From Escherichia phage PLYYY01: DNA of 57,025 nucleotides. The notes below the pieces were generated by a model. That model saw nothing but the letters and a program-made list of their open reading frames with translations. It was not told the origin of the DNA and did not search any database. Below are positions 1 through 12,707 of the stretch, in pieces. The position numbers were made by a program, and so were the translations under genes. The stretch lies in sequence record MZ911962.1; one strand, given 5' to 3'. Position 1 is the first letter of the stretch; each line of letters starts with the position of its first letter.

Positions 1-879
1 GTGAGCAACACAACTCCAGCAAGCGCGAAGTTTACCCCGTTTCGTGTAACGAGTTCCGGTCTGGATATTAACATTGCGACGCTGGAGTCTGAAGAACTGC
101 GTGATGACGCAGAAACCGCAGACTTCCGTCTTGGCGCTCGAAGCGTTGAAGGTACGGTAACAGGTGAAATGTCCTTCGGTACGTTTGACGACCTCATTGC
201 GGCAGCACTGCGCGGTGAATGGCAGGACAACGTCCTTAAAGGTGGTATTGTTCGCCAGTCATTTACTTTTGTAGACTATAACGCAGATCTGCCATCAGGT
301 AAATACACAATCTATCGCGGTTGTGAAGTTAACAGCATGACTTTCTCATTGTCTGCTGAAAACATGACCACAGTAGAGTTCGGCATTGTTGGTCGCTCGA
401 TGGAAATTGCGGAATCGCTCCCATCTGGTGCAACTATCAAAGACCGTACAACTACTTCACCGATGGACGGCTTCTCCGGTCGCTTGCTGGAAGGCGGTCA
501 GGAAATTAGCGTTATCACGGAAATCGGTCTTACCGTTGAAAACGATATCGCTCCGCGCTTCGTTGTCGGCTCGAAGTTCTCCATTGAACCGTCTGCTGGT
601 CGCCGTGCTGTAACTGGTACAGCTAACGTTTACTTCCTGGATAACAAACTGCGTATGAAGTATCTGGATGAAGTGGAAACTTCAATCAAGTTTGATCTGA
701 TCGACCCAAGCAATCCGGAACAAAAATACACTGTGGAAATCCCTCGCGTGAAATTCACTGAAGCTCCGCGTCCTATTGACGGTGAAGGGGATATCATGCT
801 TAATATGGGCTACCGCGGATTGCTGGACCCAACAACCGCAAGTTCCATCAAAATTACCCGCGTTTTAGCGGCAGCATAA
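1..879 (+). CDS. major tail (tube) protein
   Basis: 292-aa ORF starting with GTG at window position 1 (N-terminus could be cut by the window edge). Sits directly upstream of the chaperone and tape-measure genes in the conserved siphovirus order. No motif-level proof. Confidence 0.6.
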   Translation: MSNTTPASAKFTPFRVTSSGLDINIATLESEELRDDAETADFRLGARSVEGTVTGEMSFGTFDDLIAAALRGEWQDNVLKGGIVRQSFTFVDYNADLPSGKYTIYRGCEVNSMTFSLSAENMTTVEFGIVGRSMEIAESLPSGATIKDRTTTSPMDGFSGRLLEGGQEISVITEIGLTVENDIAPRFVVGSKFSIEPSAGRRAVTGTANVYFLDNKLRMKYLDEVETSIKFDLIDPSNPEQKYTVEIPRVKFTEAPRPIDGEGDIMLNMGYRGLLDPTTASSIKITRVLAAA

Positions 880-888
880 GGATAAGAA

Positions 889-1296
889 ATGACCGACACC
901 AAAAAAGCCAAAGTTGCAGTAGCTAAAAGCTTCCGTGATTTTAAAACTGTGAGCCGGGCAAATGATCCGGCAAACACTAAGCCTATGAATGTGGTTATTC
1001 CTGGTGTAGGCGACACTGGCGAAAAACTCTACATTCGTAGCCGCTACTGCACAGAGTATCGTGACGCAGAATTGAAAGCACAACGTCAACTGTTGGCACT
1101 TATGCAGGGTACAGACGGGGAAGTAACGGATGCTATGAAGGAAGATATCCTTACCCGTTCACTGTGTAATCTTGTAGCAGGTTGGACGTTTGACGAGCCT
1201 CCGACTGTTGACAACGTGTTTGAATTCTTAACGGAGAACCCAACTGTTCGAGAAGACCTTAACGTATTTGCCGCTAAAGATAGTAATTTTTTCTAA
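889..1296 (+). CDS. tail assembly chaperone (lambda G-like)
   Basis: 135-aa ORF with ATG at 889 preceded by AAGGA. Lies between the tail tube and tape-measure genes and ends in the slippery run TTTTTTC followed by TAA. Confidence 0.6.
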   Translation: MTDTKKAKVAVAKSFRDFKTVSRANDPANTKPMNVVIPGVGDTGEKLYIRSRYCTEYRDAELKAQRQLLALMQGTDGEVTDAMKEDILTRSLCNLVAGWTFDEPPTVDNVFEFLTENPTVREDLNVFAAKDSNFF

Positions 1297-1694
1297 AAGC
1301 GCGCAGACAGTTAATTGATAAGAAGATCCTCCAATGGGAACTAAATAGTAAAGTCCCCGGCGGGGGATCTTCTTTATTATCGCAACTGCAAAAGGTTGAG
1401 GAACAGTCTGGTAAGACGCCACCTAAGCTTAAAGAATATCGAGAAAAGGAAATACCGATTTGCTTCGAATATCTATCTACTCTATTTGATGATATTTACA
1501 CTGGAGGAGATTTTAGTTATACAGAATTGCACAGCTATCAAGTGACAATGGGCTTACATCTTCAACCGTACGAATGCGAAATACTGCGGCAGCTATGGCT
1601 TGAAAAGCGCGTGTCAGAAGCTGAACAAAATGCTAAACTCATGGAAAGTCAAATGCAAAATCAAAATAAAGGTAGAAGAAAAAGGAGAAGATAA
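889..1694 (+). CDS. tail assembly chaperone frameshift product (lambda GT-like), predicted -1 frameshift at 1287-1293
   Basis: The -1 frame is open for about 135 codons from 1287 to its TAA at 1692-1694 and has no start codon until codon 88. Heptamer T_TTT_TTC at 1287-1293 sits just before the G stop. The extension stop overlaps the tape-measure ATG (TAATG). Inverted repeat 1321-1329/1365-1373 lies downstream. Confidence 0.55.
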
Positions 1695-4600
1695 TGGCCG
1701 AAACCGCTTCGCTAGTAATCAGAGTTGACGCGAGAGGGATTAGTACCGCGGACTCTATGTTGCGGAACTTAGCGCGTACAGGTGACACAGCGGAGCGGTC
1801 TGCTCAACGTGTTACCTCCAGCTATAAAACATTGTCTAACACATCTAACGAACTTGCAACTGTCACAAGTCGTTTAGATGCTGCAATTGTAGGAATGATT
1901 AGCGTTGACACTATTAGCCGTGTTATATCGCTATCAGACTCCTGGACCATCCTTACCAACAAACTTGAACTAGCTCGTATGGGTAATGAAACCGTTGCGG
2001 ATTCCCAGCAACGTGTATTTGATATTGCCCAGCGTTCCCGTACCAGTTTAGAAGCAACTGCAACTCTGTACTCCCGTCTCCAGCGTGCAATGAAGAATAC
2101 TGGTATGACTGGTATGGAGCTTGGACGTATCACTGAAACAATTAACAAAGCGATGATTGTTTCCGGTGCAACGTCACATGAAGCAAGCGCTGCATTGATT
2201 CAGTTTTCGCAAGCGATGGCATCCGGTGTTCTGCGTGGGGATGAATTCCGCTCTGTTGCAGAACAAGCTCCGCGCTTAACTCAAATCATGTCCGATTCTT
2301 TAGGTGTTACCATTGGACAATTGCGTGAACTAGCCTACAGCGGCAAGTTAACCGCCGATGTGGTTATCAAATCGTTGTCTGGTGCTGCGGATACAATTGA
2401 TAAAGAATTTAGCCGCACTATGCCAACGTTCAACCAGCAATGGACAGTTGCAACAAACAACCTGACTAAGTTTATGGGCGAATCCCAAAAGACTCAAGGT
2501 GCTGTTGCTGCATTGGGACAGACGTTTGTTGCATTATCCGAAAACTTAGGAACGGTTGTAACGGTTGGTTCAGCTTTAGCCACAGTAATTACCGCCCGTA
2601 TCATCACGGCAATGCTGGCCAAGACTAAAGCGTCTATAGCTGCTGCAAAAGCATCTCAGATGGAAGCTGCACAGACTGCGGCAACTACTGCGGTTATGCA
2701 AAGTTCTATTGGCGTTACCGCACAGAAAGCGGCTGCGGATCGTGCCGCTTCGCTTGCAGCGTTACAGGTTGCTCGCGGGTCATTAGCGGTTGCTAAGGGC
2801 ACGGCAGCGGAAGCAGGTGCTCGTCTTGCGCTTATTAATGCTACCCGTGCCCATTCTGCGGCAATTATGGCGGACGTACAGGCGCGGCAGGCGCTCAATG
2901 CTGCTCTTAATGCAACTGTACCAGCCGCAAGCCGGGCAGCTACAGCAATGAGCGTGCTGCGCGGTGCTATGGGGTTAATTGGTGGTCCTGTTGGTGTAGC
3001 AATGCTGGCAGCGGGTGCAATTTACTCCTATAAAGCGTCGCTGGAAGCTGGTCGTGCGGAAAACAATCAGTTTGCAGATAGTGTTGATAGTGTACGCGAA
3101 AAACTGATGCAAATGACGGAAGCTCAGCTGGCAGCTAACGCTGTCAAAGCTAGAGCAATCCTTCCGGAACTTGAAGAGCAAATGAAGCGCGAGCAAACCG
3201 CTCTTAAATCTGCAACGGAAACGCAGAAGTTCTATGAAGCACAATTGAAGCGTCGAGCTGAATCCGGTCGAGATACTGCTAGTGCGGAAAAGAACTTACA
3301 GATTGCTACGGATAACGTCAAGCTAGCTGCTGAACGCGCGGAAGACGCACAACGTCGATATAACAATGTGCTTGAAATGACAAGCCCCGCTATCGAGAAG
3401 ATAATCCCGTTAGCTCGTCAGCTTGCTGCTGATATGAAGGCTGTTCTTAACATCAAATCCGGTCCGCTTATTGACGAGAAAGTTCTTGATCGTTTTAAAA
3501 CTCAGCTAGGTGACGTTAACCGTGAGATTGACGTTAACGCTGTTAAGGGTGCTGGTAATGCTCGTCAATCTGCAATCCTTAGAGGTCTGTATCAAACACT
3601 AGGTAAAGATGCAGACACCTACGGAAGTCTGATTCGCAAAGTAGCTATGGGTCAGGACGTTAGCTCAGAGGCAACAAGCGAGTCCGCTAAAGAGCTTGTT
3701 AAATATGCTCAAGATTTAGCCCAAGCTCTTGGCAAAAACTACGATCTTGAAGAAGCAGAGAGAAACCGGACTAAAGCTACAAAAGACGCTATTAAGGCAG
3801 ATCAACAAAACGCTAAGGTTATTGACGATTTACGAAACAAGCTTAACGAAGTAACCACAGGGGTTAAGGAAAACGCCAAAGCGAAAGCGCAAGCGGTAGC
3901 ACTTAATAAGCTCAATGCGTCTGCAACGGCTGCGGAAAAAGCGGAAGTTGTTAGACTTGCTGCTGCAATCTACGATGCAGAAGAAGCTCAAAAGAAACTG
4001 GACGAGCGTAAGAAGAATCGTAAGTTTGCTCAGGGTCTGTTAGATGAAGGTATGACAGACTATGAAAAAATCGCGTACGAGCAAAATACAAAGATTGCAG
4101 AGCTTAATGCAAAACAACGAGCCGATGATCTAGCTTACTATCAGCTTTACGAAGATGCTAAAACACAAGTCCTGAAGAAAGCAAGTATGGAAAGGGAAAA
4201 CCTGGATAAAGTTCTTATGAACAGGATGATATCCTTTTCTCAAGAATCGTTGGGTGTTATATTGTCAGGTCTGGAAGAAGGTGTTAGTAAACAGAACTTT
4301 ATTTATAAAGCAATGTTTGCAGCACAGAAAGCAATGCAAATTCCCTCAATTCTTGCTAACACGGAAACAGCGGCATCTGCGGCGCTTGCGTGGGGTACAC
4401 AGCAAGGCGGTGCTACAATGGGCGCAGCTATGGCTGGTATAGTAAAAGCTATGGGTTATGCGTCGGCTGCTACTGTGGGTGGCTTAGCAATTGCCGGCAT
4501 GGCACACGACGGTATTGATAATGTTCCGCGCGAAGGTACATGGTTATTGGATAAAGGTGAACGTGTACTTAATGCTCCGTCTAATGACAAGTTAAACCGC

Positions 4601-4810
4601 TTCCTGGATAGCCAGGCTTCACAACAAGGTGGCGTGAATATGTCCGGTGGTGTTAGCATTGTTCAGTATATCACGGTGCAAGGAAATGGCGATGCTGCAC
4701 TCACGCAAGCCATGCAGCAAGCGGCTCGTGATGGCGCGGAGCAGGGATATAATAAAGTTCTTACTGACTTTGCATCCCGAGGAACAATTCGTAGAACTGC
4801 AATGGGGTAA
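1694..4810 (+). CDS. tail tape measure protein
   Basis: 1038-aa ORF, Ala-rich with long coiled-coil-like central region and Gly-rich hydrophobic C-terminal segment; position after the G/GT chaperone. Confidence 0.85.
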   Translation: MAETASLVIRVDARGISTADSMLRNLARTGDTAERSAQRVTSSYKTLSNTSNELATVTSRLDAAIVGMISVDTISRVISLSDSWTILTNKLELARMGNETVADSQQRVFDIAQRSRTSLEATATLYSRLQRAMKNTGMTGMELGRITETINKAMIVSGATSHEASAALIQFSQAMASGVLRGDEFRSVAEQAPRLTQIMSDSLGVTIGQLRELAYSGKLTADVVIKSLSGAADTIDKEFSRTMPTFNQQWTVATNNLTKFMGESQKTQGAVAALGQTFVALSENLGTVVTVGSALATVITARIITAMLAKTKASIAAAKASQMEAAQTAATTAVMQSSIGVTAQKAAADRAASLAALQVARGSLAVAKGTAAEAGARLALINATRAHSAAIMADVQARQALNAALNATVPAASRAATAMSVLRGAMGLIGGPVGVAMLAAGAIYSYKASLEAGRAENNQFADSVDSVREKLMQMTEAQLAANAVKARAILPELEEQMKREQTALKSATETQKFYEAQLKRRAESGRDTASAEKNLQIATDNVKLAAERAEDAQRRYNNVLEMTSPAIEKIIPLARQLAADMKAVLNIKSGPLIDEKVLDRFKTQLGDVNREIDVNAVKGAGNARQSAILRGLYQTLGKDADTYGSLIRKVAMGQDVSSEATSESAKELVKYAQDLAQALGKNYDLEEAERNRTKATKDAIKADQQNAKVIDDLRNKLNEVTTGVKENAKAKAQAVALNKLNASATAAEKAEVVRLAAAIYDAEEAQKKLDERKKNRKFAQGLLDEGMTDYEKIAYEQNTKIAELNAKQRADDLAYYQLYEDAKTQVLKKASMERENLDKVLMNRMISFSQESLGVILSGLEEGVSKQNFIYKAMFAAQKAMQIPSILANTETAASAALAWGTQQGGATMGAAMAGIVKAMGYASAATVGGLAIAGMAHDGIDNVPREGTWLLDKGERVLNAPSNDKLNRFLDSQASQQGGVNMSGGVSIVQYITVQGNGDAALTQAMQQAARDGAEQGYNKVLTDFASRGTIRRTAMG

Positions 4811-4813
4811 TAT

Positions 4814-5398
4814 ATGCTCACTTGGCCCGAAGAGCTTAGACCATCTGAAATGGAATGGTATCTAGTTTCAAACGCTGTAGAATTTACAAGCCCCTTCAAT
4901 GGGGCTTCCCAAACTGTGTCCTATCCTGGATCGCGATGGGAAGCTACGCTAACCTTTAGCAATTTAAATGACTGGCAATCCAGAAAGCTTGAATCGACGT
5001 TAGCTAAACTTGATGGTAAAGCTGGTCGAATCATGCTTCAGGATTTTGGTCGATGGGGGCGTGCGCCAATCGGAGCACCTGTGGTTAATGGTGCAAACAA
5101 TACAGGGACAACTTTATCTACCAAAGGGTGGAGTCCAAACCGCAAGGTTTTATGGGAAGGGGATTACATCGCTGTAAACAATGAATTGAAATTAATAACA
5201 GAAGATGCTTGGAGCGATGCTTCCGGTAACGTAATCCTAAATATTGCACCTATGCTGAGGAGTATTCCTCCAAACGGTGCTAAGATTGAAACTCAGAAGC
5301 CACAAGGAGCTTTCCGGTTAGCAGAAAATACTAACGGAGTTAAACGTCAACCTGCTTTTAATAACTCCTTTACTTTAAAATTTTCGGAGGCATTCTAA
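4814..5398 (+). CDS. minor tail protein (lambda M-like / distal tail)
   Basis: 194-aa ORF immediately after the tape measure; call by gene order only. Confidence 0.45.
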   Translation: MLTWPEELRPSEMEWYLVSNAVEFTSPFNGASQTVSYPGSRWEATLTFSNLNDWQSRKLESTLAKLDGKAGRIMLQDFGRWGRAPIGAPVVNGANNTGTTLSTKGWSPNRKVLWEGDYIAVNNELKLITEDAWSDASGNVILNIAPMLRSIPPNGAKIETQKPQGAFRLAENTNGVKRQPAFNNSFTLKFSEAF

Positions 5399-5982
5399 TG
5401 CTATTCAGTCCATTCAGCGATGACCTTCTTAGTGCAATGGAACAACCGAACGTTGCATTGGTGCTGGCTGCGGAAATAGATTTCCCGTCCGGTGTAACAA
5501 GGGTTCATACAGGAACAGGAACTGTTATTATTAACGGTCAGACTTTTCTTGGAGTAGGCACACTTGGGGATGTTGGTTCAGTTACCGAAGAGAACAGCAC
5601 AAGCTCAAGTACAATGTCTATGGTGCTTAGCGGCCTAGATATGAGTCTTGTAGGTGAAACTTTAAACGAAGAAGTTATCGGATGTAATGTTGTCTGCTAT
5701 CTTGCAGTAATGAACGATCAAGGCGTTGTTACTGGCGCCAACGTATTATTTGAAGGGTTTATTACAGATACATCCTTACAAGCAGGTCAACAAAATGCAT
5801 TGAGTTATGTCATTGCCAACGTGTTTGAGCGTTGGTCGCAAGGTTTACCGGATCGCTATACAGATGAAAGTCAACAGCGTTTGTATTCAGGTGATCGCTT
5901 TTTTAGATATGTCGCACAAATGGCCGAACGTTCAATCTTTTGGGGGAGTAAAAAAGATGCGCCAGGATTCACCTATGAGTAA
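5398..5982 (+). CDS. minor tail protein (lambda L-like)
   Basis: 194-aa ORF whose start overlaps the previous stop (ATG at 5398); call by position in tail module. Confidence 0.45.
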   Translation: MLFSPFSDDLLSAMEQPNVALVLAAEIDFPSGVTRVHTGTGTVIINGQTFLGVGTLGDVGSVTEENSTSSSTMSMVLSGLDMSLVGETLNEEVIGCNVVCYLAVMNDQGVVTGANVLFEGFITDTSLQAGQQNALSYVIANVFERWSQGLPDRYTDESQQRLYSGDRFFRYVAQMAERSIFWGSKKDAPGFTYE

Positions 5983-6391
5983 ATTACCAGGCTGGCAGAC
6001 ACGTTTATTAACCACAGTAAAGGAGTTGTCATCGACTCCTTTCTCTTGGGGAGAAAACGATTGTTGTACGTTTGCTGCTAAATGTGTTGATGCGCAATAT
6101 GGTACTAATATCTATGAACAGATAGCTGGTAAATATACCACCGAACTTGGAAGCAGACGGTTTTCAATTGAAAAGGTTGGAACAGCTTACCTTCCAACAT
6201 TGCTGGATGCTTACCTAAGCGAGCGGGTTGATAAAAATTTTGCGCAACGCGGCGATGTGGTTACATTTGAGGGAGCATTGGGCATAACTGCTGGCATATT
6301 ATGGACTGGATATGTATGGGCTATGGGTCCGAACGGTGTGGAAACTTTCCCGCTTAATAAGATCAAAATTACGGATATTTGGAGGGTCTAA
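5957..6391 (+). CDS. tail assembly protein K-like, NlpC/P60-type cysteine peptidase fold
   Basis: ATG at 5957 preceded by GGGGGAG. Product begins MRQDSPMSKLPGW and contains the NDCC Cys motif typical of NlpC/P60-like tail proteins. The ORF-track start at 5807 would overlap the upstream gene. Confidence 0.5.
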   Translation: MRQDSPMSKLPGWQTRLLTTVKELSSTPFSWGENDCCTFAAKCVDAQYGTNIYEQIAGKYTTELGSRRFSIEKVGTAYLPTLLDAYLSERVDKNFAQRGDVVTFEGALGITAGILWTGYVWAMGPNGVETFPLNKIKITDIWRV

Positions 6392-10154: not shown

Positions 10155-12707
10155 ATGGCAACTCGTTTATATGGTGTTTTGCTTGACGGATTAAAAAAAC
10201 CAATCGTTAACGCAACGGTTGTCCTCTTAGCAAAAGGGAACACAATAACAGTCCTTAACGGTAGCGAAGCAATCTTTAACACCGATGCTCAAGGCGCTTA
10301 TAATATCACAGTACAGCCTGGTTACTATAAAGTGATCATAGGTCCACAAGGTATTGAACCCTATAAAGCTGGGGAAATTGCAATATATGCTGACAGCCTG
10401 GAAGGCTCGCTTAATAGCTATTTGGTCAACTGGGCAGAAGAAGATTTAACCCCTGAAGTTATTAAACAAGTTAAAGAGCTTGTAGCAATCTCAGAAGAAT
10501 ACTCGCTTCAAGCTGGGCGTTCTGCTGCTGCGGCACAAGCTGATGCTACAGATGCTCGCAATAGCAAGGCTTCCGCTGCCCAATCCGCTTCAGATGCTCT
10601 TGTCTATAAGAATGATTCTAAGACTAATGCTGATGTAGCTAAACAAGCACAAGCTGGAGCTGCTGGGTCTGCTAACACTGCCAGTGCAGCTTTAACCACG
10701 ATTCAAGGTATTCAAAAGGATGTTACCGCATCCAAGGACCGCGCTGTAACGGCAGAAACCAATGCTATGTCCAGCGAGACTGTGGCTACGCAAGCTAAAA
10801 CCGACGCTGTTACTGCTAAAGATCAAGCTATAGCTGCTAAGGATAAAGCTCAACAAATTGCAAATTCAATAGACCCTCAATCAATTAAAAATTCTATAGG
10901 TCTTGGTGTTGAAAGACGCTACCTTTCGGATCTAACAAAGCCTTTCTCAGATGTTGGTTTTTTCATGATCAACTCTAGTACGATTGGGTATCCTTCTATA
11001 GCTGACCAATCAGCTATGTCCGGTTATGTAGCAAGGCAGGATGGTTCACCTTCCTATACGGGACTGTTTGTAGATCCTGGTCATGGTCACGCTTACACCA
11101 TGACGCAATTTAATAATGTTGCAACATTCCGCCAATTAACTTTCTCCGCAGATGTTGATAGAATTAAACAACTATCCTCAGGTACTCGCGTTTACGGCGG
11201 CCCTCAAGATGAACGTTATTTTGAAATTCACACTGGTGCATGGGGTGTTTATAACGTAACACAAAAGAAATGGCTGCCATTAGCCATTCAACAAGGCGGA
11301 ACTGGAGCTGTTAGTGCGGACGATGCATTGAAGAACATTGGTGGGTTCAAAATGCAAAGGGCGTCCCTTTATACAGAAAATTTAAATGATATTACAGGAT
11401 CCAAATGCGGCGTCTATTTTCAAAGTAGCAGTGCTAATGCGTCCAAGGATAGAAACTACCCTGTACAAGTAGCGGGTGTTTTACTCGTATACGCAAGTTT
11501 TGCGAACGGTCCTGAAAGTTGCATACAAGAATATATAGAATATAACACAGGGACAAGATATATAAGAGCTTACAATGTGGGGCCTGGTACTTGGACCCAA
11601 TGGAAGAATGTTGTAGTAGCTGGTCAAAATATAACATTTGCAGGAGTAACCACACGGGGACAGGATACCACATCCAGTTCATTTGTAAGCCAAGTTACAA
11701 ATGCTTCCGGAACTACTATCGGACAGTTTGAAGCAAGAGCAGACACGACTGGAAACGCTTCCCTTATAGTTCGGGATCTTAGCGGTTCCAATTCTAGATT
11801 TTACACATTAAATTTAAACGGGAGTTTTGACGCGCCTGAAGGTTATGCGCTAAAAACAACCTCTGACTGGAATGCATTATTGAATGTGAACGCATCATCC
11901 TTCAAAATGGTTTCCGGTCCAACAAACTCACCAGTTGAAACCGTCAACTATGGTGGGTTCCACCTAAGCTTTAGCGGTAATTACGGCGTCCAGTTTGCTG
12001 GCAGAAATAATGATTACATGCTTCGTGGAATTGAGGCCGGGGAGTATTCCGACTGGAACAGAATTATAGTTGGTACTAAAGCAAAATATATACCTTTCGA
12101 TTCCCGAGATGGTTTTATTAGCGACAATGACGGTAACACCACATGGGCTCCTAGCAATGGGGGCGGTTTCCAAGCCAGTTATGCGGAAAACCGCATTATG
12201 CAAGGATGGATTGATGGAGCTGGTCGTCTTTATGGTCGCTTCTTAACGTCAGATCAGGCAACAACTCCAAAAACCGATGTAGCTTGGAAGAGTTCCGCAA
12301 TGTTGGAGCTGGATAACAGATTCACAGGAACCAATACATTTATCGGGGATGTTGCGTGCAGTGCAGCTAACCCGTTGCGATTAAGATCGGGGAACCCGAC
12401 AATATCATTTGTTGAGTCCGACGCAAGCGAATCTACTTATTTATTTGTAGCAGATGGCGGGGGCTTTAGACTTAACAGGGATACCACAGCTGGAGCAGAA
12501 TTGTTCAGCTACAGCAGATCCCAAAACAATTTAAAGCTGGGAGTAAGCTCGTATTTCACCTTAAACACAAGATTTGATCAAGGCTGGACGTCTAAAGGTT
12601 CCGTAGATGTAACTACTACAGGCTATAGCACAGTCTCGGTTATTACAACGTCTTCTACAGACGCTGTTGGTGCACGAAACCAATTTGAACATCGAGCGTC
12701 AAGCTGA
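10155..12707 (+). CDS. tail fiber protein
   Basis: ATG at 10155 preceded by AGAGG (ORF-track start 10125 is less likely). About 850 aa with an N-terminal Ala/Ser/Thr/Gln-rich repetitive coiled region and a long beta-rich C-terminal part; follows the J-like gene. Confidence 0.65.
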   Translation: MATRLYGVLLDGLKKPIVNATVVLLAKGNTITVLNGSEAIFNTDAQGAYNITVQPGYYKVIIGPQGIEPYKAGEIAIYADSLEGSLNSYLVNWAEEDLTPEVIKQVKELVAISEEYSLQAGRSAAAAQADATDARNSKASAAQSASDALVYKNDSKTNADVAKQAQAGAAGSANTASAALTTIQGIQKDVTASKDRAVTAETNAMSSETVATQAKTDAVTAKDQAIAAKDKAQQIANSIDPQSIKNSIGLGVERRYLSDLTKPFSDVGFFMINSSTIGYPSIADQSAMSGYVARQDGSPSYTGLFVDPGHGHAYTMTQFNNVATFRQLTFSADVDRIKQLSSGTRVYGGPQDERYFEIHTGAWGVYNVTQKKWLPLAIQQGGTGAVSADDALKNIGGFKMQRASLYTENLNDITGSKCGVYFQSSSANASKDRNYPVQVAGVLLVYASFANGPESCIQEYIEYNTGTRYIRAYNVGPGTWTQWKNVVVAGQNITFAGVTTRGQDTTSSSFVSQVTNASGTTIGQFEARADTTGNASLIVRDLSGSNSRFYTLNLNGSFDAPEGYALKTTSDWNALLNVNASSFKMVSGPTNSPVETVNYGGFHLSFSGNYGVQFAGRNNDYMLRGIEAGEYSDWNRIIVGTKAKYIPFDSRDGFISDNDGNTTWAPSNGGGFQASYAENRIMQGWIDGAGRLYGRFLTSDQATTPKTDVAWKSSAMLELDNRFTGTNTFIGDVACSAANPLRLRSGNPTISFVESDASESTYLFVADGGGFRLNRDTTAGAELFSYSRSQNNLKLGVSSYFTLNTRFDQGWTSKGSVDVTTTGYSTVSVITTSSTDAVGARNQFEHRASS

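What the first reader, a model, noticed from the sequence alone, without database searches (positions are those of the whole stretch)
1287..1694. Programmed -1 ribosomal frameshift extending the tail assembly chaperone (G/GT-like)
Seen directly: the chaperone ORF (889-1296) ends in T_TTT_TTC immediately before its TAA. The -1 frame is then open for 135 codons to a TAA at 1692-1694 that overlaps the tape-measure ATG; by my estimate a stop-free run of that length is expected by chance only about 0.2 percent of the time. That frame has no start codon until codon 88. An inverted repeat at 1321-1329/1365-1373 lies about 28 nt downstream. Established knowledge: a conserved G/GT frameshift just upstream of the tape-measure gene is typical of long-tailed phages. 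The six-frame track shows nothing here because the extension has no start.
Basis: partly seen in the sequence, partly recalled or inferred. Interest (0 to 1): 0.45.

Follow-up and report, generated by a model that had tools for sequence, protein, structure and literature searches.

The report
Tail chaperone G/GT ribosomal frameshift
This is the standard programmed -1 ribosomal frameshift that lets a long-tailed phage make a short and a long tail-assembly chaperone from one gene; it looks real from comparative evidence, but the same site is already annotated in the closely related phage Seurat, so it is ordinary.

Summary
ORF 889-1296 ends AAT TTT TTC TAA. The heptamer T_TTT_TTC (1287-1293) is in slip phase. 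The -1 frame is then open to a TAA at 1692-1694 that overlaps the tape-measure ATG. The first TTG, GTG and ATG in that frame are at 1527, 1542 and 1548, and none has a Shine-Dalgarno sequence.

The window is a Seuratvirus, 96% identical to phage CSP1 and 94% to Seurat. GenBank KM236243 already annotates this slip as a joined 'tape measure chaperone' CDS, and UniProt holds the 268-aa fusion.

Comparative evidence is strong. Every related locus examined, across Escherichia, Pseudomonas, Alteromonas and metagenomic phages, keeps a U-rich slippery site at the homologous position. The exception is L061, whose record breaks the frame. Protein homology starts directly after the slip. Substitutions in the start-less part are almost all synonymous in the -1 frame.

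In 30 of 30 non-redundant relatives the 99 nt after the slip site fold more stably than codon-permuted controls. In the window its strong stem starts 22 nt after the heptamer, beyond the usual 4-10 nt, so a stimulatory role is plausible but unproven.

Verdict: interpretation supported, already known, low interest. No experimental proof was found in the papers searched.

The parts
1..879 (+). 3' part of the tail tube (major tail) gene, directly upstream of the chaperone gene
   Evidence: Pfam PF18906 Phage_tube_2 E=3e-39 and PHROG 290 E=7.5e-77. Annotated as tail tube or major tail protein in relatives.
889..1296 (+). G: short tail assembly (tape measure) chaperone, 135 aa, the zero-frame product ending at TAA 1294-1296
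   Evidence: ORF listed. PHROG 569 E=2.8e-26 and PHROG 313 'tail assembly chaperone' E=1.5e-11; Pfam Phage_TAC_4 is below its cut-off (E=0.046). AAGGA lies 9 nt before the ATG. 15 synonymous and 2 non-synonymous codon changes against Seurat.
1287..1293 (+). Slippery heptamer T_TTT_TTC in X_XXY_YYZ phase of the G frame. tRNA-Phe in the P and A sites can re-pair one base back.
   Evidence: The same in-phase heptamer sits at the homologous position in 9g, Vid5, PSTCR4, Kpn2-P2, Ab18, PSA28, R7M, ZQG1 and many IMG/VR loci. Variants are TTTTTTA/TTTAAAG, AAATTTT, AAAAAAG and a few imperfect forms. The motif is under-represented in the window, 10 copies against 19.4+/-3.9 expected.
1294..1296 (+). 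UAA stop of G directly after the heptamer ('shifty stop' context)
   Evidence: The adjacent stop is kept in Seuratvirus, 9g and Kpn2-P2. It lies 3-93 nt further on in Vid5, EC151, PSTCR4, Ab18, PSA28, R7M and Baskent, so it is not essential for the family.
1293..1694 (+). T extension: 133 codons in the -1 frame (LKARRQ...RRKRRR) plus TAA 1692-1694, which overlaps the tape-measure ATG. It has no usable start of its own.
   Evidence: Pfam PF23812 Phage_TAC_18 E=2.2e-9 (37.7 bits against a cut-off of 27) and PHROG 569 E=7.4e-47. tblastn homology starts at residue 1 in relatives at 35% identity. In 1293-1526, codon changes in this frame are 11 synonymous to 0 non-synonymous against VogelGryff and 16 to 5 against Skure.
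889..1694 (+). GT: predicted 268-aa frameshift fusion (889..1293 read in the zero frame, then 1293..1691 in the -1 frame; GenBank style join 889..1290,1290..1694)
Evidence: UniProt A0A0A0RTG6 is 268 aa and 99% identical.
1316..1379 (+). P2: long imperfect RNA hairpin whose core is the perfect repeat 1321-1329/1365-1373. Its base lies 22 nt after the heptamer.
   Evidence: MFE -34.3 kcal/mol, z=-3.2 against dinucleotide shuffles and z=-3.81 against synonymous-codon permutation, with 2 of 300 as stable. Its nucleotides are invariant in relatives 66-74% identical over 880-1700. Different sequences form a hairpin at the same place in 9g, Kpn2-P2, EC151 and Vid5.
1304..1410 (+). Possible composite structure: P1 (CAGAC 1304-1308 / GUCUG 1406-1410), P2, and P3 (1383-1387/1394-1398). 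P1 begins 10 nt after the heptamer.
   Evidence: Found with the hairpin rule of Sharma et al., dG -38.4 kcal/mol. Four P1 pairs are kept in STP-SP5 and yong3, with one A-U to U-A swap. By my estimate a 4-5 bp closing helix of this kind is expected by chance, so P1 is tentative.
1682..1687 (+). Shine-Dalgarno sequence (AAGGAG) of the tape-measure gene, lying inside the Arg/Lys codons of the T tail
   Evidence: An RBS is annotated at 1683-1687 in the Seurat record.
1694..4810 (+). Tape measure protein gene (1038 aa), directly downstream
   Evidence: TIGR02675 tape_meas_nterm E=3.8e-24. Annotated as tape measure protein in all relatives.

Best explanation
This is the G/GT tail-assembly-chaperone recoding site of a Seuratvirus.

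Most ribosomes translate 889-1293 and terminate at UAA 1294-1296, giving the 135-aa chaperone G. A minority slip back one nucleotide on U_UUU_UUC (1287-1293). Two routes are possible. In the first, the two tRNA-Phe on UUU and UUC re-pair together to UUU and UUU. In the second, the P-site tRNA-Phe slips alone (UUC to UUU) while the adjacent UAA waits for a release factor. Either way the ribosome next reads CUA AAA GCG... and continues for 133 codons to UAA 1692-1694. The product is the 268-aa fusion GT (...KDSNFF-LKARRQ...).

By analogy with lambda gpG/gpGT, the G part would coat the tape measure protein encoded just downstream. The rare T domain would recruit the tail tube protein encoded just upstream. 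The G:GT ratio would be set by the slip frequency.

A conserved RNA structure after the site (strong hairpin 1316-1379, possibly closed by 1304-1308/1406-1410) probably tunes the slip frequency.

Shown here: the sequence anatomy, the conservation, purifying selection on the start-less frame, and selection for RNA structure. Inferred: the slip itself, its efficiency, the protein partners, and the role of the hairpin.
For: 1. Anatomy: an in-phase heptamer, an adjacent stop, and 133 open -1 codons ending on the tape-measure ATG. The chance of such an open run is about 5e-4.

2. No independent start. The first TTG, GTG and ATG are at codons 81, 86 and 88 and none has an SD, whereas G and the tape-measure gene have clear SDs.

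3. The start-less part is translated. In 1293-1526, codon changes in the -1 frame are 11 synonymous to 0 non-synonymous against VogelGryff and 16 to 5 against Skure. Over 1293-1691 the other two frames give 3:15 and 1:17 against VogelGryff, and 2:35 and 0:37 against Skure. The T peptide is 100% identical in VogelGryff although the DNA of 880-1700 is 94.9% identical.

4. Deep conservation. An in-phase TTTTTTC (or TTTTTTA/TTTAAAG, AAATTTT, AAAAAAG, or a near-heptamer) lies at the homologous position in 15 named phages from 9 host genera and about 60 IMG/VR loci. The -1 frame runs 105-147 codons, and in the 15 annotated phage records it ends at the tape-measure start. In Ab18, PSA28, R7M, PSTCR4 and Baskent, G continues 12-31 codons past the heptamer, yet T-frame homology (FFRE...) still begins at the heptamer. 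That pins the shift point and rules out re-initiation after the G stop.

5. Family evidence: PHROG 569 spans both halves, Pfam Phage_TAC_18 hits T, and tube and tape-measure genes flank the pair.

6. Independent annotation: the Seurat record joins the CDS at the same base, and UniProt holds the 268-aa fusion.

7. Motif quality. In E. coli, UUN codons and all-pyrimidine heptamers are frameshift-prone, and cognate A-site re-pairing (UUC to UUU, same tRNA-Phe) is the main rule (PMC4066793).

8. RNA structure. The 99 nt after the site are more stable than synonymous-codon permutations in 30 of 30 non-redundant loci (mean z -2.47, Wilcoxon p=2e-9). A control region in the same ORF gives mean z -0.43. 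The deepest MFE dip across -360..+420 lies at +24..+36. In the A_AAT_TTT clade a stem starting 6 nt after the heptamer shows covariation: 95.7% of cells paired, 5 pairs with changes on both sides, 0 of 500 shuffles as good.
Against: - No protein, reporter or ribosome-profiling data for this site were found for any Seuratvirus or Queuovirinae phage. The Seurat join is itself a prediction.
- The strong hairpin starts 22 nt after the heptamer, outside the 4-10 nt window typical of bacterial stimulators (PMC4066793). Only a weak 5-bp helix, indistinguishable from chance, brings the structure to 10 nt.
- Several GenBank records annotate two separate genes instead.
- Insertion of one U by RNA polymerase on the T6 run would give the same protein.
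- The fold of G could not be checked (single-sequence model, pLDDT 41).
Confidence: 0.9

Rival explanations
1. Transcriptional slippage. RNA polymerase adds one extra U on the T6 run (1287-1292), so a fraction of the mRNAs carry G and T in one frame. The protein would be identical (...NFFLKAR...).
For: The site is a homopolymer run, and the product cannot be told from the ribosomal one by mass spectrometry (my derivation). Transcriptional slippage is a documented alternative in bacteria and phages (review PMC5009743).
Against: - Six T is short for efficient slippage by bacterial RNA polymerase, which usually needs runs of about 8-9 or more (my knowledge, not tested here).
- The phase of the run relative to the G frame is kept in all loci, which matters for ribosomes but not for polymerase.
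- Relatives replace the run with non-homopolymeric tandem-slip sites at the same position: A_AAT_TTT, T_TTA_AAG, C_AAT_TTT, G_GTT_TTT.
- A structure downstream of the site, with covariation at a 6-nt spacer in one clade, fits a ribosomal stimulator.
Confidence: 0.05
2. Two independent genes: G (889-1296) and a small protein started inside the -1 frame (ATG 1548, 48 aa, or TTG 1527). This is how CSP1C, the BASEL phages and Skure are annotated.
For: Records PQ202980 and MZ501110 annotate 1548-1694 as a separate 'tape measure chaperone', and Skure uses a TTG start. More distant relatives have an NTG 15-30 codons into the frame that annotators chose as a start.
Against: - No SD precedes 1527, 1542 or 1548.
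- The 78 codons upstream of the first NTG (1293-1526) are under purifying selection in this frame and are homologous down to 25-35% identity, starting from the residue after the slip.
- The position of the first NTG varies from codon 15 to beyond codon 80 among relatives, so it is not conserved.
- PHROG 569 and the Seurat protein are fusions.
Confidence: 0.02
3. The hairpin is not a frameshift stimulator. It could be a partial intrinsic terminator or an mRNA-stability or processing element that lowers tape-measure expression relative to tube and G. In that case the frameshift runs on the heptamer and the stop codon alone.
For: The scan flags GTCCCCGGCGGGGGAT followed by CTTCTTTATT (1353-1368 plus tail) as terminator-like. 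The A-rich 5' arm and U-rich 3' arm resemble a terminator layout. The stem lies too far (22 nt) from the heptamer for a classical stimulator. After the G stop the mRNA is only sparsely translated, so a structure there could matter for stability (inference).
Against: - Terminator-like hits in 1-5000 are at chance level, 7 against 5.7+/-2.0.
- The equivalent hairpins of 9g, Kpn2-P2 and EC151 have no U-tract.
- No promoter-like site lies between the hairpin and the tape-measure gene, which must be transcribed.
- In sister clades the homologous structure sits at the canonical 5-7 nt spacer.
Confidence: 0.15
4. Artefact: a one-base homopolymer sequencing error splits a single G-T gene, so there is no recoding.
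For: T-runs are error-prone on several sequencing platforms (general knowledge).
Against: The same T6C run and frame arrangement appear in more than 30 independently sequenced Seuratvirus genomes and in distant clades with different heptamers. The stop directly after the heptamer and the separate conservation of the short G form argue the same way.
Confidence: 0.01

Closest known systems
Phage lambda gpG/gpGT programmed -1 frameshift (Levin et al. 1993; Xu, Hendrix & Duda 2004, 2013, 2014; summarised in PMC5009743)
   Same: The gene pair lies between the major tail gene and the tape-measure gene. The downstream ORF is in the -1 frame and has no start. There is an X_XXY_YYZ heptamer near the end of G. 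The T frame ends overlapping the tape-measure start; the lambda layout is shown. The expected outcome is a major short product and a minor fusion.
   Different: - The heptamer is U_UUU_UUC, not G_GGA_AAG.
- The G stop follows the heptamer directly, whereas in lambda it lies 15 nt further on.
- None of the family searches run here linked these proteins to lambda G or T, and no direct comparison with the lambda proteins was made. Membership rests on position, architecture and other TAC profiles.
- A strong conserved hairpin follows at 22 nt.
- Efficiency and binding partners are untested here.
Escherichia phage Seurat 'tape measure chaperone' CPT_Seurat13/14 (GenBank KM236243; UniProt A0A0A0RTG6)
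   Same: This is the orthologous locus, 97% identical in DNA over 880-1700. It has the identical heptamer, stop, junction and 268-aa fusion, annotated with ribosomal slippage at the same base.
   Different: The two differ by 23 nucleotide differences (mostly synonymous) and one residue in T (I/L). The Seurat annotation is a prediction, and its paper does not discuss it.
IS3-family and dnaX-type bacterial -1 frameshift signals (heptamer plus a downstream hairpin, three-way junction or pseudoknot; PMC4066793)
   Same: A heptamer is followed by a stable, possibly branched structure of 60-110 nt. In the A_AAT_TTT, Baskent and R7M relatives the structure starts 5-7 nt after the motif, as in IS elements.
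   Different: In the window the strong stem starts 22 nt after the motif. No upstream SD-like stimulator was seen on reading the sequence. The gene context is a phage structural module, not a transposase or a polymerase.
Phage T7 gene 10A/10B frameshift (G_GUU_UUC)
   Same: Both are U-rich heptamers decoded by tRNA-Phe in the A site. From my memory of Condron et al. 1991, not checked here, T7 also depends on a distant 3' element rather than an adjacent hairpin. The imperfect G_GTT_TTT sites in loci L053 and L056 resemble it.
   Different: T7 recodes a capsid gene rather than a chaperone. There is no adjacent stop. The relationship is one of mechanism only.

Membership tests
Tail assembly chaperone G/GT frameshift system of long-tailed phages (Xu et al. 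2004) | The gene pair sits between the major tail (tube) gene and the tape measure gene | tested here: met
   1-879 matches Phage_tube_2 (E=3e-39). 1694-4810 matches tape_meas_nterm TIGR02675 (E=3.8e-24).
Tail assembly chaperone G/GT frameshift system of long-tailed phages (Xu et al. 2004) | The second ORF overlaps the end of the first in the -1 frame and lacks its own start and RBS | tested here: met
   The -1 frame is open over 1287-1691. The first NTG is at 1527, and there is no SD before 1527, 1542 or 1548.
Tail assembly chaperone G/GT frameshift system of long-tailed phages (Xu et al. 2004) | A slippery X_XXY_YYZ heptamer in the zero-frame phase lies inside the overlap | tested here: met
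   T_TTT_TTC at 1287-1293. It is one of only two in-phase copies in long ORFs of the window.
Tail assembly chaperone G/GT frameshift system of long-tailed phages (Xu et al. 2004) | The arrangement is conserved among diverged relatives | tested here: met
   15 named phages and about 60 IMG/VR loci keep the site and the open -1 frame, and homology starts at the slip.
Tail assembly chaperone G/GT frameshift system of long-tailed phages (Xu et al. 2004) | Sequence or profile membership in known chaperone families | tested here: met
   T matches Pfam PF23812 Phage_TAC_18 at 37.7 bits, above the cut-off of 27. G matches PHROG 313 'tail assembly chaperone' (E=1.5e-11). Both match PHROG 569. Pfam Phage_TAC_4 on G is below its cut-off (14.4 against 21.1 bits).
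Tail assembly chaperone G/GT frameshift system of long-tailed phages (Xu et al. 2004) | The G domain has the chaperone fold | tested here: inconclusive
   The single-sequence AlphaFold model of G has pLDDT 41. There is no PDB sequence relative. The T model (pLDDT 83.8, all helical) only retrieves its own family.
Tail assembly chaperone G/GT frameshift system of long-tailed phages (Xu et al. 2004) | Two proteins, G and GT, are made at a fixed ratio, both needed for tail assembly and absent from virions | not testable with these tools
   This needs western blot, mass spectrometry and genetics. No such data were found for Seuratvirus.
Bacterial -1 frameshift stimulatory hairpin (empirical rule of Sharma et al. 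2014, PMC4066793) | A hairpin of 17-140 nt that starts 4-10 nt after the motif, is closed by a G-C pair plus at least 3 further pairs, and needs at least 7.6 kcal/mol to unfold | tested here: inconclusive
   The strong stem P2 starts at 22 nt and so fails the rule. A composite closed by CAGAC/GUCUG starts at 10 nt, spans 107 nt and has dG -38.4, so it meets the rule at its limit. The closing helix is short and expected by chance. Sister clades meet the rule clearly.
Intrinsic (Rho-independent) terminator | A compact GC-rich hairpin directly followed by a U-tract, conserved as such | tested here: not met
   The pattern is present in the window. However, the hit count is at chance level, the element lies inside a conserved coding frame, and the U-tract is absent in the 9g, Kpn2-P2 and EC151 equivalents.
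Transcriptional slippage site | A long homopolymer run, usually about 8-9 or more A/T, with no dependence on reading phase | tested here: not met
   The run is T6. The phase is conserved, and relatives use non-homopolymeric heptamers. The threshold length comes from my own knowledge.
Described RNA families (Rfam 15) | A match reaching a family's gathering score | tested here: not met
   Only generic hairpin-like hits appear, all far below the gathering score (best 24.8 bits against 85).

The most novel reading that the evidence does not exclude
The 65-107-nt RNA structure after the slip site is a conserved functional part of this chaperone frameshift signal across a large phage family. Selection for it shows in 30 of 30 non-redundant loci, and one clade shows covariation. 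In Seuratvirus and Nonagvirus it acts from an unusually long distance, 15-22 nt for the strong stem. It may work together with the adjacent stop codon through P-site slippage while the ribosome waits for a release factor. If so, G/GT frameshifting is not always stimulator-free. The family would also offer a natural series of spacer lengths (5-7 nt against 10-22 nt) for studying how structure distance and stop codons set a fixed low shift ratio.
Probability: 0.3. Interest if true: 0.4.

Novelty: already known. Interest (0 to 1): 0.15.

Why it matters
In practice this is an annotation point. The window should carry a joined 268-aa tape-measure chaperone CDS (889..1290,1290..1694). The stand-alone 48-aa ORF given in several sister records is wrong. 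Many GenBank entries of Seuratvirus, Nonagvirus, Vid5-, EC151- and Ab18-like phages could be corrected in the same way.

Biologically it confirms that this phage group sets its G:GT chaperone ratio by recoding, as lambda does.

[quoted passage not shown] Its distance from the heptamer differs between clades, and that could be tested with simple reporters.

Tried and rejected
- **Empirical control for the open frame.** I measured how far the -1 frame stays open past the stop of all 84 ORFs of at least 100 aa. The result is dominated by the next gene overlapping the stop, so I used the composition-based probability instead.
- **PDB sequence search** with the fusion: no hit even at E=10.
- **NCBIfam** on the fusion: no hit.
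- **Rfam** on 1150-1750 at E up to 10: only sub-threshold generic hairpin hits.
- **Structure prediction.** G alone gave pLDDT 41, which is useless. T alone gave a helical model whose BFVD matches are only its own family.
- **Second MFE dip.** The family profile has a second dip at about -342. In the window that region is not significantly structured (z=-0.64), so I dropped it.
- **Column-wise covariation for the window's own hairpin.** Seuratvirus sequences are nearly invariant there. The hairpins of 9g, EC151 and Vid5 are out of register by a few nucleotides, so they support 'a hairpin here' but not the same pairs. I used the codon-permutation test instead.
- **Re-initiation after the G stop.** Rejected because in clades where G runs 12-31 codons past the heptamer, T-frame homology still starts at the heptamer.
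- **A -2 (or +1) shift on the U6 run.** That frame closes after 8 codons, so it would give only a short tail.
- **The large protein-database searches.** I did not run them because their result would not change the verdict.
Full report
**1. Observation**

- ORF 889-1296 encodes 135 residues and ends ...AAA GAT AGT AAT TTT TTC TAA.
- The heptamer T_TTT_TTC (1287-1293) is therefore in the X_XXY_YYZ phase of that frame, and the stop follows directly.
- The -1 frame is open from 1287 to a TAA at 1692-1694. That is 135 codons, 133 of them after the slip.
- The TAA shares its last base with the ATG (1694) of a 1038-aa ORF.
- At the window's base composition a stop-free run of this length has a probability of about 5e-4.
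- In the -1 frame the first TTG, GTG and ATG are at 1527, 1542 and 1548 (codons 81, 86, 88). None has a Shine-Dalgarno sequence. The G start has AAGGA and the downstream ORF has AAGGAG.
- The 9-nt inverted repeat 1321-1329/1365-1373 is exact.

**2. Identity of the locus**

The window is a Seuratvirus (Queuovirinae). Positions 1-5000 are 96.3% identical to Cronobacter phage CSP1 and Escherichia phage CSP1C, and 93.8% identical to phage Seurat.

The flanking genes are a tail tube gene (Pfam Phage_tube_2, E=3e-39) and a tape measure gene (TIGR02675, E=3.8e-24).

Family matches for the two halves:

| Part | Match | Score |
|---|---|---|
| G | PHROG 313 'tail assembly chaperone' | E=1.5e-11 |
| G | PHROG 569, profile positions 11-126 | E=2.8e-26 |
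| G | Pfam Phage_TAC_4 | E=0.046, below cut-off |
| -1 extension | PHROG 569, profile positions 130-256 | E=7.4e-47 |
| -1 extension | Pfam Phage_TAC_18 | 37.7 bits, cut-off 27 |

PHROG 569 covers both halves, so that family is built on fused proteins.

**3. Already annotated**

That position corresponds to window 1290. A structure search returned UniProt A0A0A0RTG6, 'Tape measure chaperone [Escherichia phage Seurat]', 268 aa. This is exactly 135 + 133 residues.

The Seurat genome announcement names the chaperone only. None of the Seuratvirus, Vid5 or EC151 papers in the library discusses the frameshift, and I found no experimental test.

Other records annotate a separate small ORF equivalent to 1548-1694 or a TTG-started version. 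These include CSP1C, the BASEL phages and Skure.

**4. Comparative evidence that the -1 frame is translated from the slip site**

*Selection within the genus.* Codon changes in the start-less part, 1293-1526, read in the -1 frame:

| Compared with | Synonymous | Non-synonymous |
|---|---|---|
| VogelGryff | 11 | 0 |
| Skure | 16 | 5 |

Over 1293-1691, read in the other two frames (synonymous:non-synonymous), the same substitutions give:

| Compared with | G frame | Third frame |
|---|---|---|
| VogelGryff | 3:15 | 1:17 |
| Skure | 2:35 | 0:37 |

*Distant relatives.* tblastn with the extension finds relatives down to about 26% identity. In many of them the alignment starts at residue 1.

*Slip site in 15 named phages.* I examined Seurat, Skure, STP-SP5, yong3, Vid5, EC151, 9g, HdK1, PSTCR4, Kpn2-P2, Baskent_P4_1, PSA28, R7M, Ab18 and ZQG1.
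- Each has an in-phase TTTTTTC in the overlap (EC151 has TTTTTTA/TTTAAAG).
- Each has an open -1 frame of 117-144 codons that ends at the tape-measure start.

*Slip site in 63 further IMG/VR loci.* These were fetched with an alignment of the T domains. They show TTTTTTC, TTTTTTA/TTTAAAG, AAATTTT or AAAAAAG at the homologous position. A few carry imperfect forms (C_AAT_TTT, G_GTT_TTT, A_CTT_TTT). One locus, L061, has a -1 frame broken by a stop just upstream of an in-phase AAATTTT, so it could not be scored; I did not examine it further.

*The shift point is pinned.* In Ab18, PSA28, R7M, PSTCR4 and Baskent the G frame runs 12-31 codons past the heptamer. T-frame homology (FFRE...) nevertheless begins at the heptamer. 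This excludes re-initiation after the G stop.

*No conserved internal start.* The position of the first NTG in the -1 frame ranges from codon 15 to beyond codon 80.

**5. Mechanism**

U_UUU_UUC lets tRNA-Phe in both sites re-pair one base back, UUU to UUU and UUC to UUU. In E. coli, UUN codons and all-pyrimidine heptamers are frameshift-prone. [quoted passage not shown]

Because UAA follows directly, a second route is possible. The P-site tRNA-Phe could slip alone while the stop codon waits for a release factor. This 'shifty stop' idea comes from my own knowledge of Weiss et al. 1987, which is cited in PMC5009743. Both routes give ...NFF-LKAR....

The motif is under-represented in the window, with 10 copies against 19.4+/-3.9 expected. 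Only one other copy is in phase in a long ORF, at 10958, and there the -1 frame closes after 4 codons.

By analogy with lambda, G would bind the tape measure protein and the T domain would bind the tube protein, with a large excess of G (PMC5009743). That part is inference.

**6. The downstream RNA structure**

- MFE of 1287-1400 is -34.3 kcal/mol, z=-3.2 against dinucleotide shuffles.
- Its nucleotides are invariant in STP-SP5 and yong3, although these phages are only 74% and 66.5% identical over 880-1700.
- Among codons for identical residues, synonymous sites are more conserved in codons 6-42 than in the rest of the first 100 codons. This holds for Skure (p=0.0025) and yong3 (p=0.018), but not for STP-SP5 (p=0.25).

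*In relatives.* 9g, Kpn2-P2, EC151 and Vid5 have hairpins of quite different sequence at the same place.
- Across 29 loci less than 85% identical, the deepest dip of a 60-nt MFE profile between -360 and +420 lies at +24 to +36 from the heptamer start.
- The 99 nt after the heptamer are more stable than versions with synonymous codons permuted within the same ORF in 30 of 30 loci. Mean z is -2.47 and Wilcoxon p is 2e-9. For the window z is -3.81.
- A control region, codons 46-78, gives mean z -0.43.
- In the A_AAT_TTT clade a long-range stem starts 6 nt after the heptamer. It has 95.7% of cells paired and 5 pairs with changes on both sides. No shuffle out of 500 reaches its covariation score, and slid controls pair at 23-52%.

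*Spacing.* In Baskent, R7M and others the structure also starts 5-7 nt after the motif. In the window the strong stem starts 22 nt after the motif, and 16 nt after it if a 4-bp AGUU/AACU extension is counted. The empirical bacterial rule is 4-10 nt (PMC4066793).

A composite structure closed by CAGAC (1304-1308) and GUCUG (1406-1410) starts at 10 nt, with dG -38.4. It keeps four pairs in STP-SP5 and yong3, with one A-U to U-A swap. By my estimate several such short closing helices are expected by chance, so I treat it as tentative.

*Conclusion on the structure.* It is real and under selection. Its role as a stimulator is well supported for sister clades and plausible but unproven for the window.

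*Terminator reading.* This alternative rests on a GC hairpin plus U-rich tail at 1353-1378. It is weak for three reasons. Such hits are at chance level in 1-5000. The U-tract is not conserved in relatives. The tape-measure gene downstream has no promoter-like site of its own. Rfam has no matching family.

**7. Rivals**

- *Transcriptional slippage on T6* would give the same protein and cannot be excluded from sequence alone. It fits poorly with the conserved phase, with the non-homopolymeric heptamers in relatives, and with the short run.
- *Two independent genes* is contradicted by selection and homology upstream of any start.
- *A sequencing error* is excluded by more than 30 concordant genomes.

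**8. Verdict**

It is a textbook kind of element. The very site is already annotated in the closely related phage Seurat, so I rate novelty as 'already known' and interest as low.

The modest added value has two parts. One is the family-wide evidence for a selected RNA structure after the slip site, with clade-specific spacing. The other is the finding that many sister records mis-annotate the extension as a small separate gene.

Noticed in passing
window 1548-1694; L002 1548-1694; L003 1548-1694; L004 1203-1415: Several GenBank records of the same genus (CSP1C, BASEL phages such as VogelGryff, Skure) annotate a stand-alone 48-70-aa 'tape measure chaperone' ORF instead of the joined frameshift CDS. 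More distant relatives (9g, Vid5, EC151, yong3, STP-SP5, PSTCR4) start the second gene at a non-conserved internal NTG. These look like systematic mis-annotations of the GT extension.
   Followed up: yes
L013 1001-1270 (Aeromonas phage AP1, MT713136, 240650-240919): A 254-kb Straboviridae record carries a T-domain-like stretch (34.6% identity, E=1e-11). It has no upstream G ORF and no slippery site, and it lies on the strand opposite to the annotated gene. It may be a captured fragment or an assembly chimera.
   Followed up: partly
L012 about 1290-1394 and 1389-2297 (phage HdK1, MK373794): The HdK1 T frame diverges from its near-identical relative 9g after ...ELIR and overruns the tape-measure start. 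The tape-measure gene is annotated in two pieces. This suggests indel errors in that record.
   Followed up: no
window 10958-10964: This is the only other in-phase T_TTT_TTC in a long ORF (860 codons) of the window. The -1 frame closes after 4 codons, so a slip there would only truncate the protein. Overall TTTTTTC is about half as frequent as expected (10 against 19.4+/-3.9).
   Followed up: yes
window 4814-6391: Three ORFs of identical length (194 aa) follow the tape-measure gene: 4814-5398, 5398-5982 and 5807-6391. The third overlaps the second by 176 nt in another frame, so one of the start calls is probably wrong. Alternatively there is another overlap worth checking.
   Followed up: no
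L082 1110-1194 (phage lambda, 10109-10193): Applying the same hairpin rule to lambda gives a 71-nt structure starting 7 nt after G_GGA_AAG (dG -34.8 kcal/mol). I ran no shuffle control and did not check the literature on whether it matters.
   Followed up: no
window 1671-1694: The highly basic C-terminal tail of T (GRRKRRR) is encoded by the purine-rich stretch AGAAGAAAAAGGAGAAGA. The same stretch contains the Shine-Dalgarno sequence of the tape-measure gene, and the T stop overlaps its ATG (TAATG). T termination and tape-measure initiation may therefore be coupled.
   Followed up: no
one search hit list (KY982929, MH230177): Phages 95-96% identical to this E. coli-type Seuratvirus are recorded with Cronobacter sakazakii and Aeromonas schubertii as hosts. 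That is surprising for such close relatives and may reflect broad host range or labelling.
   Followed up: no
family profile, about -342 to -324 nt from the heptamer (window about 945-1005): The MFE profile averaged over 29 relatives shows a second dip inside the 5' part of G (mean z about -1). In the window itself this region is not significantly structured (z=-0.64).
   Followed up: partly
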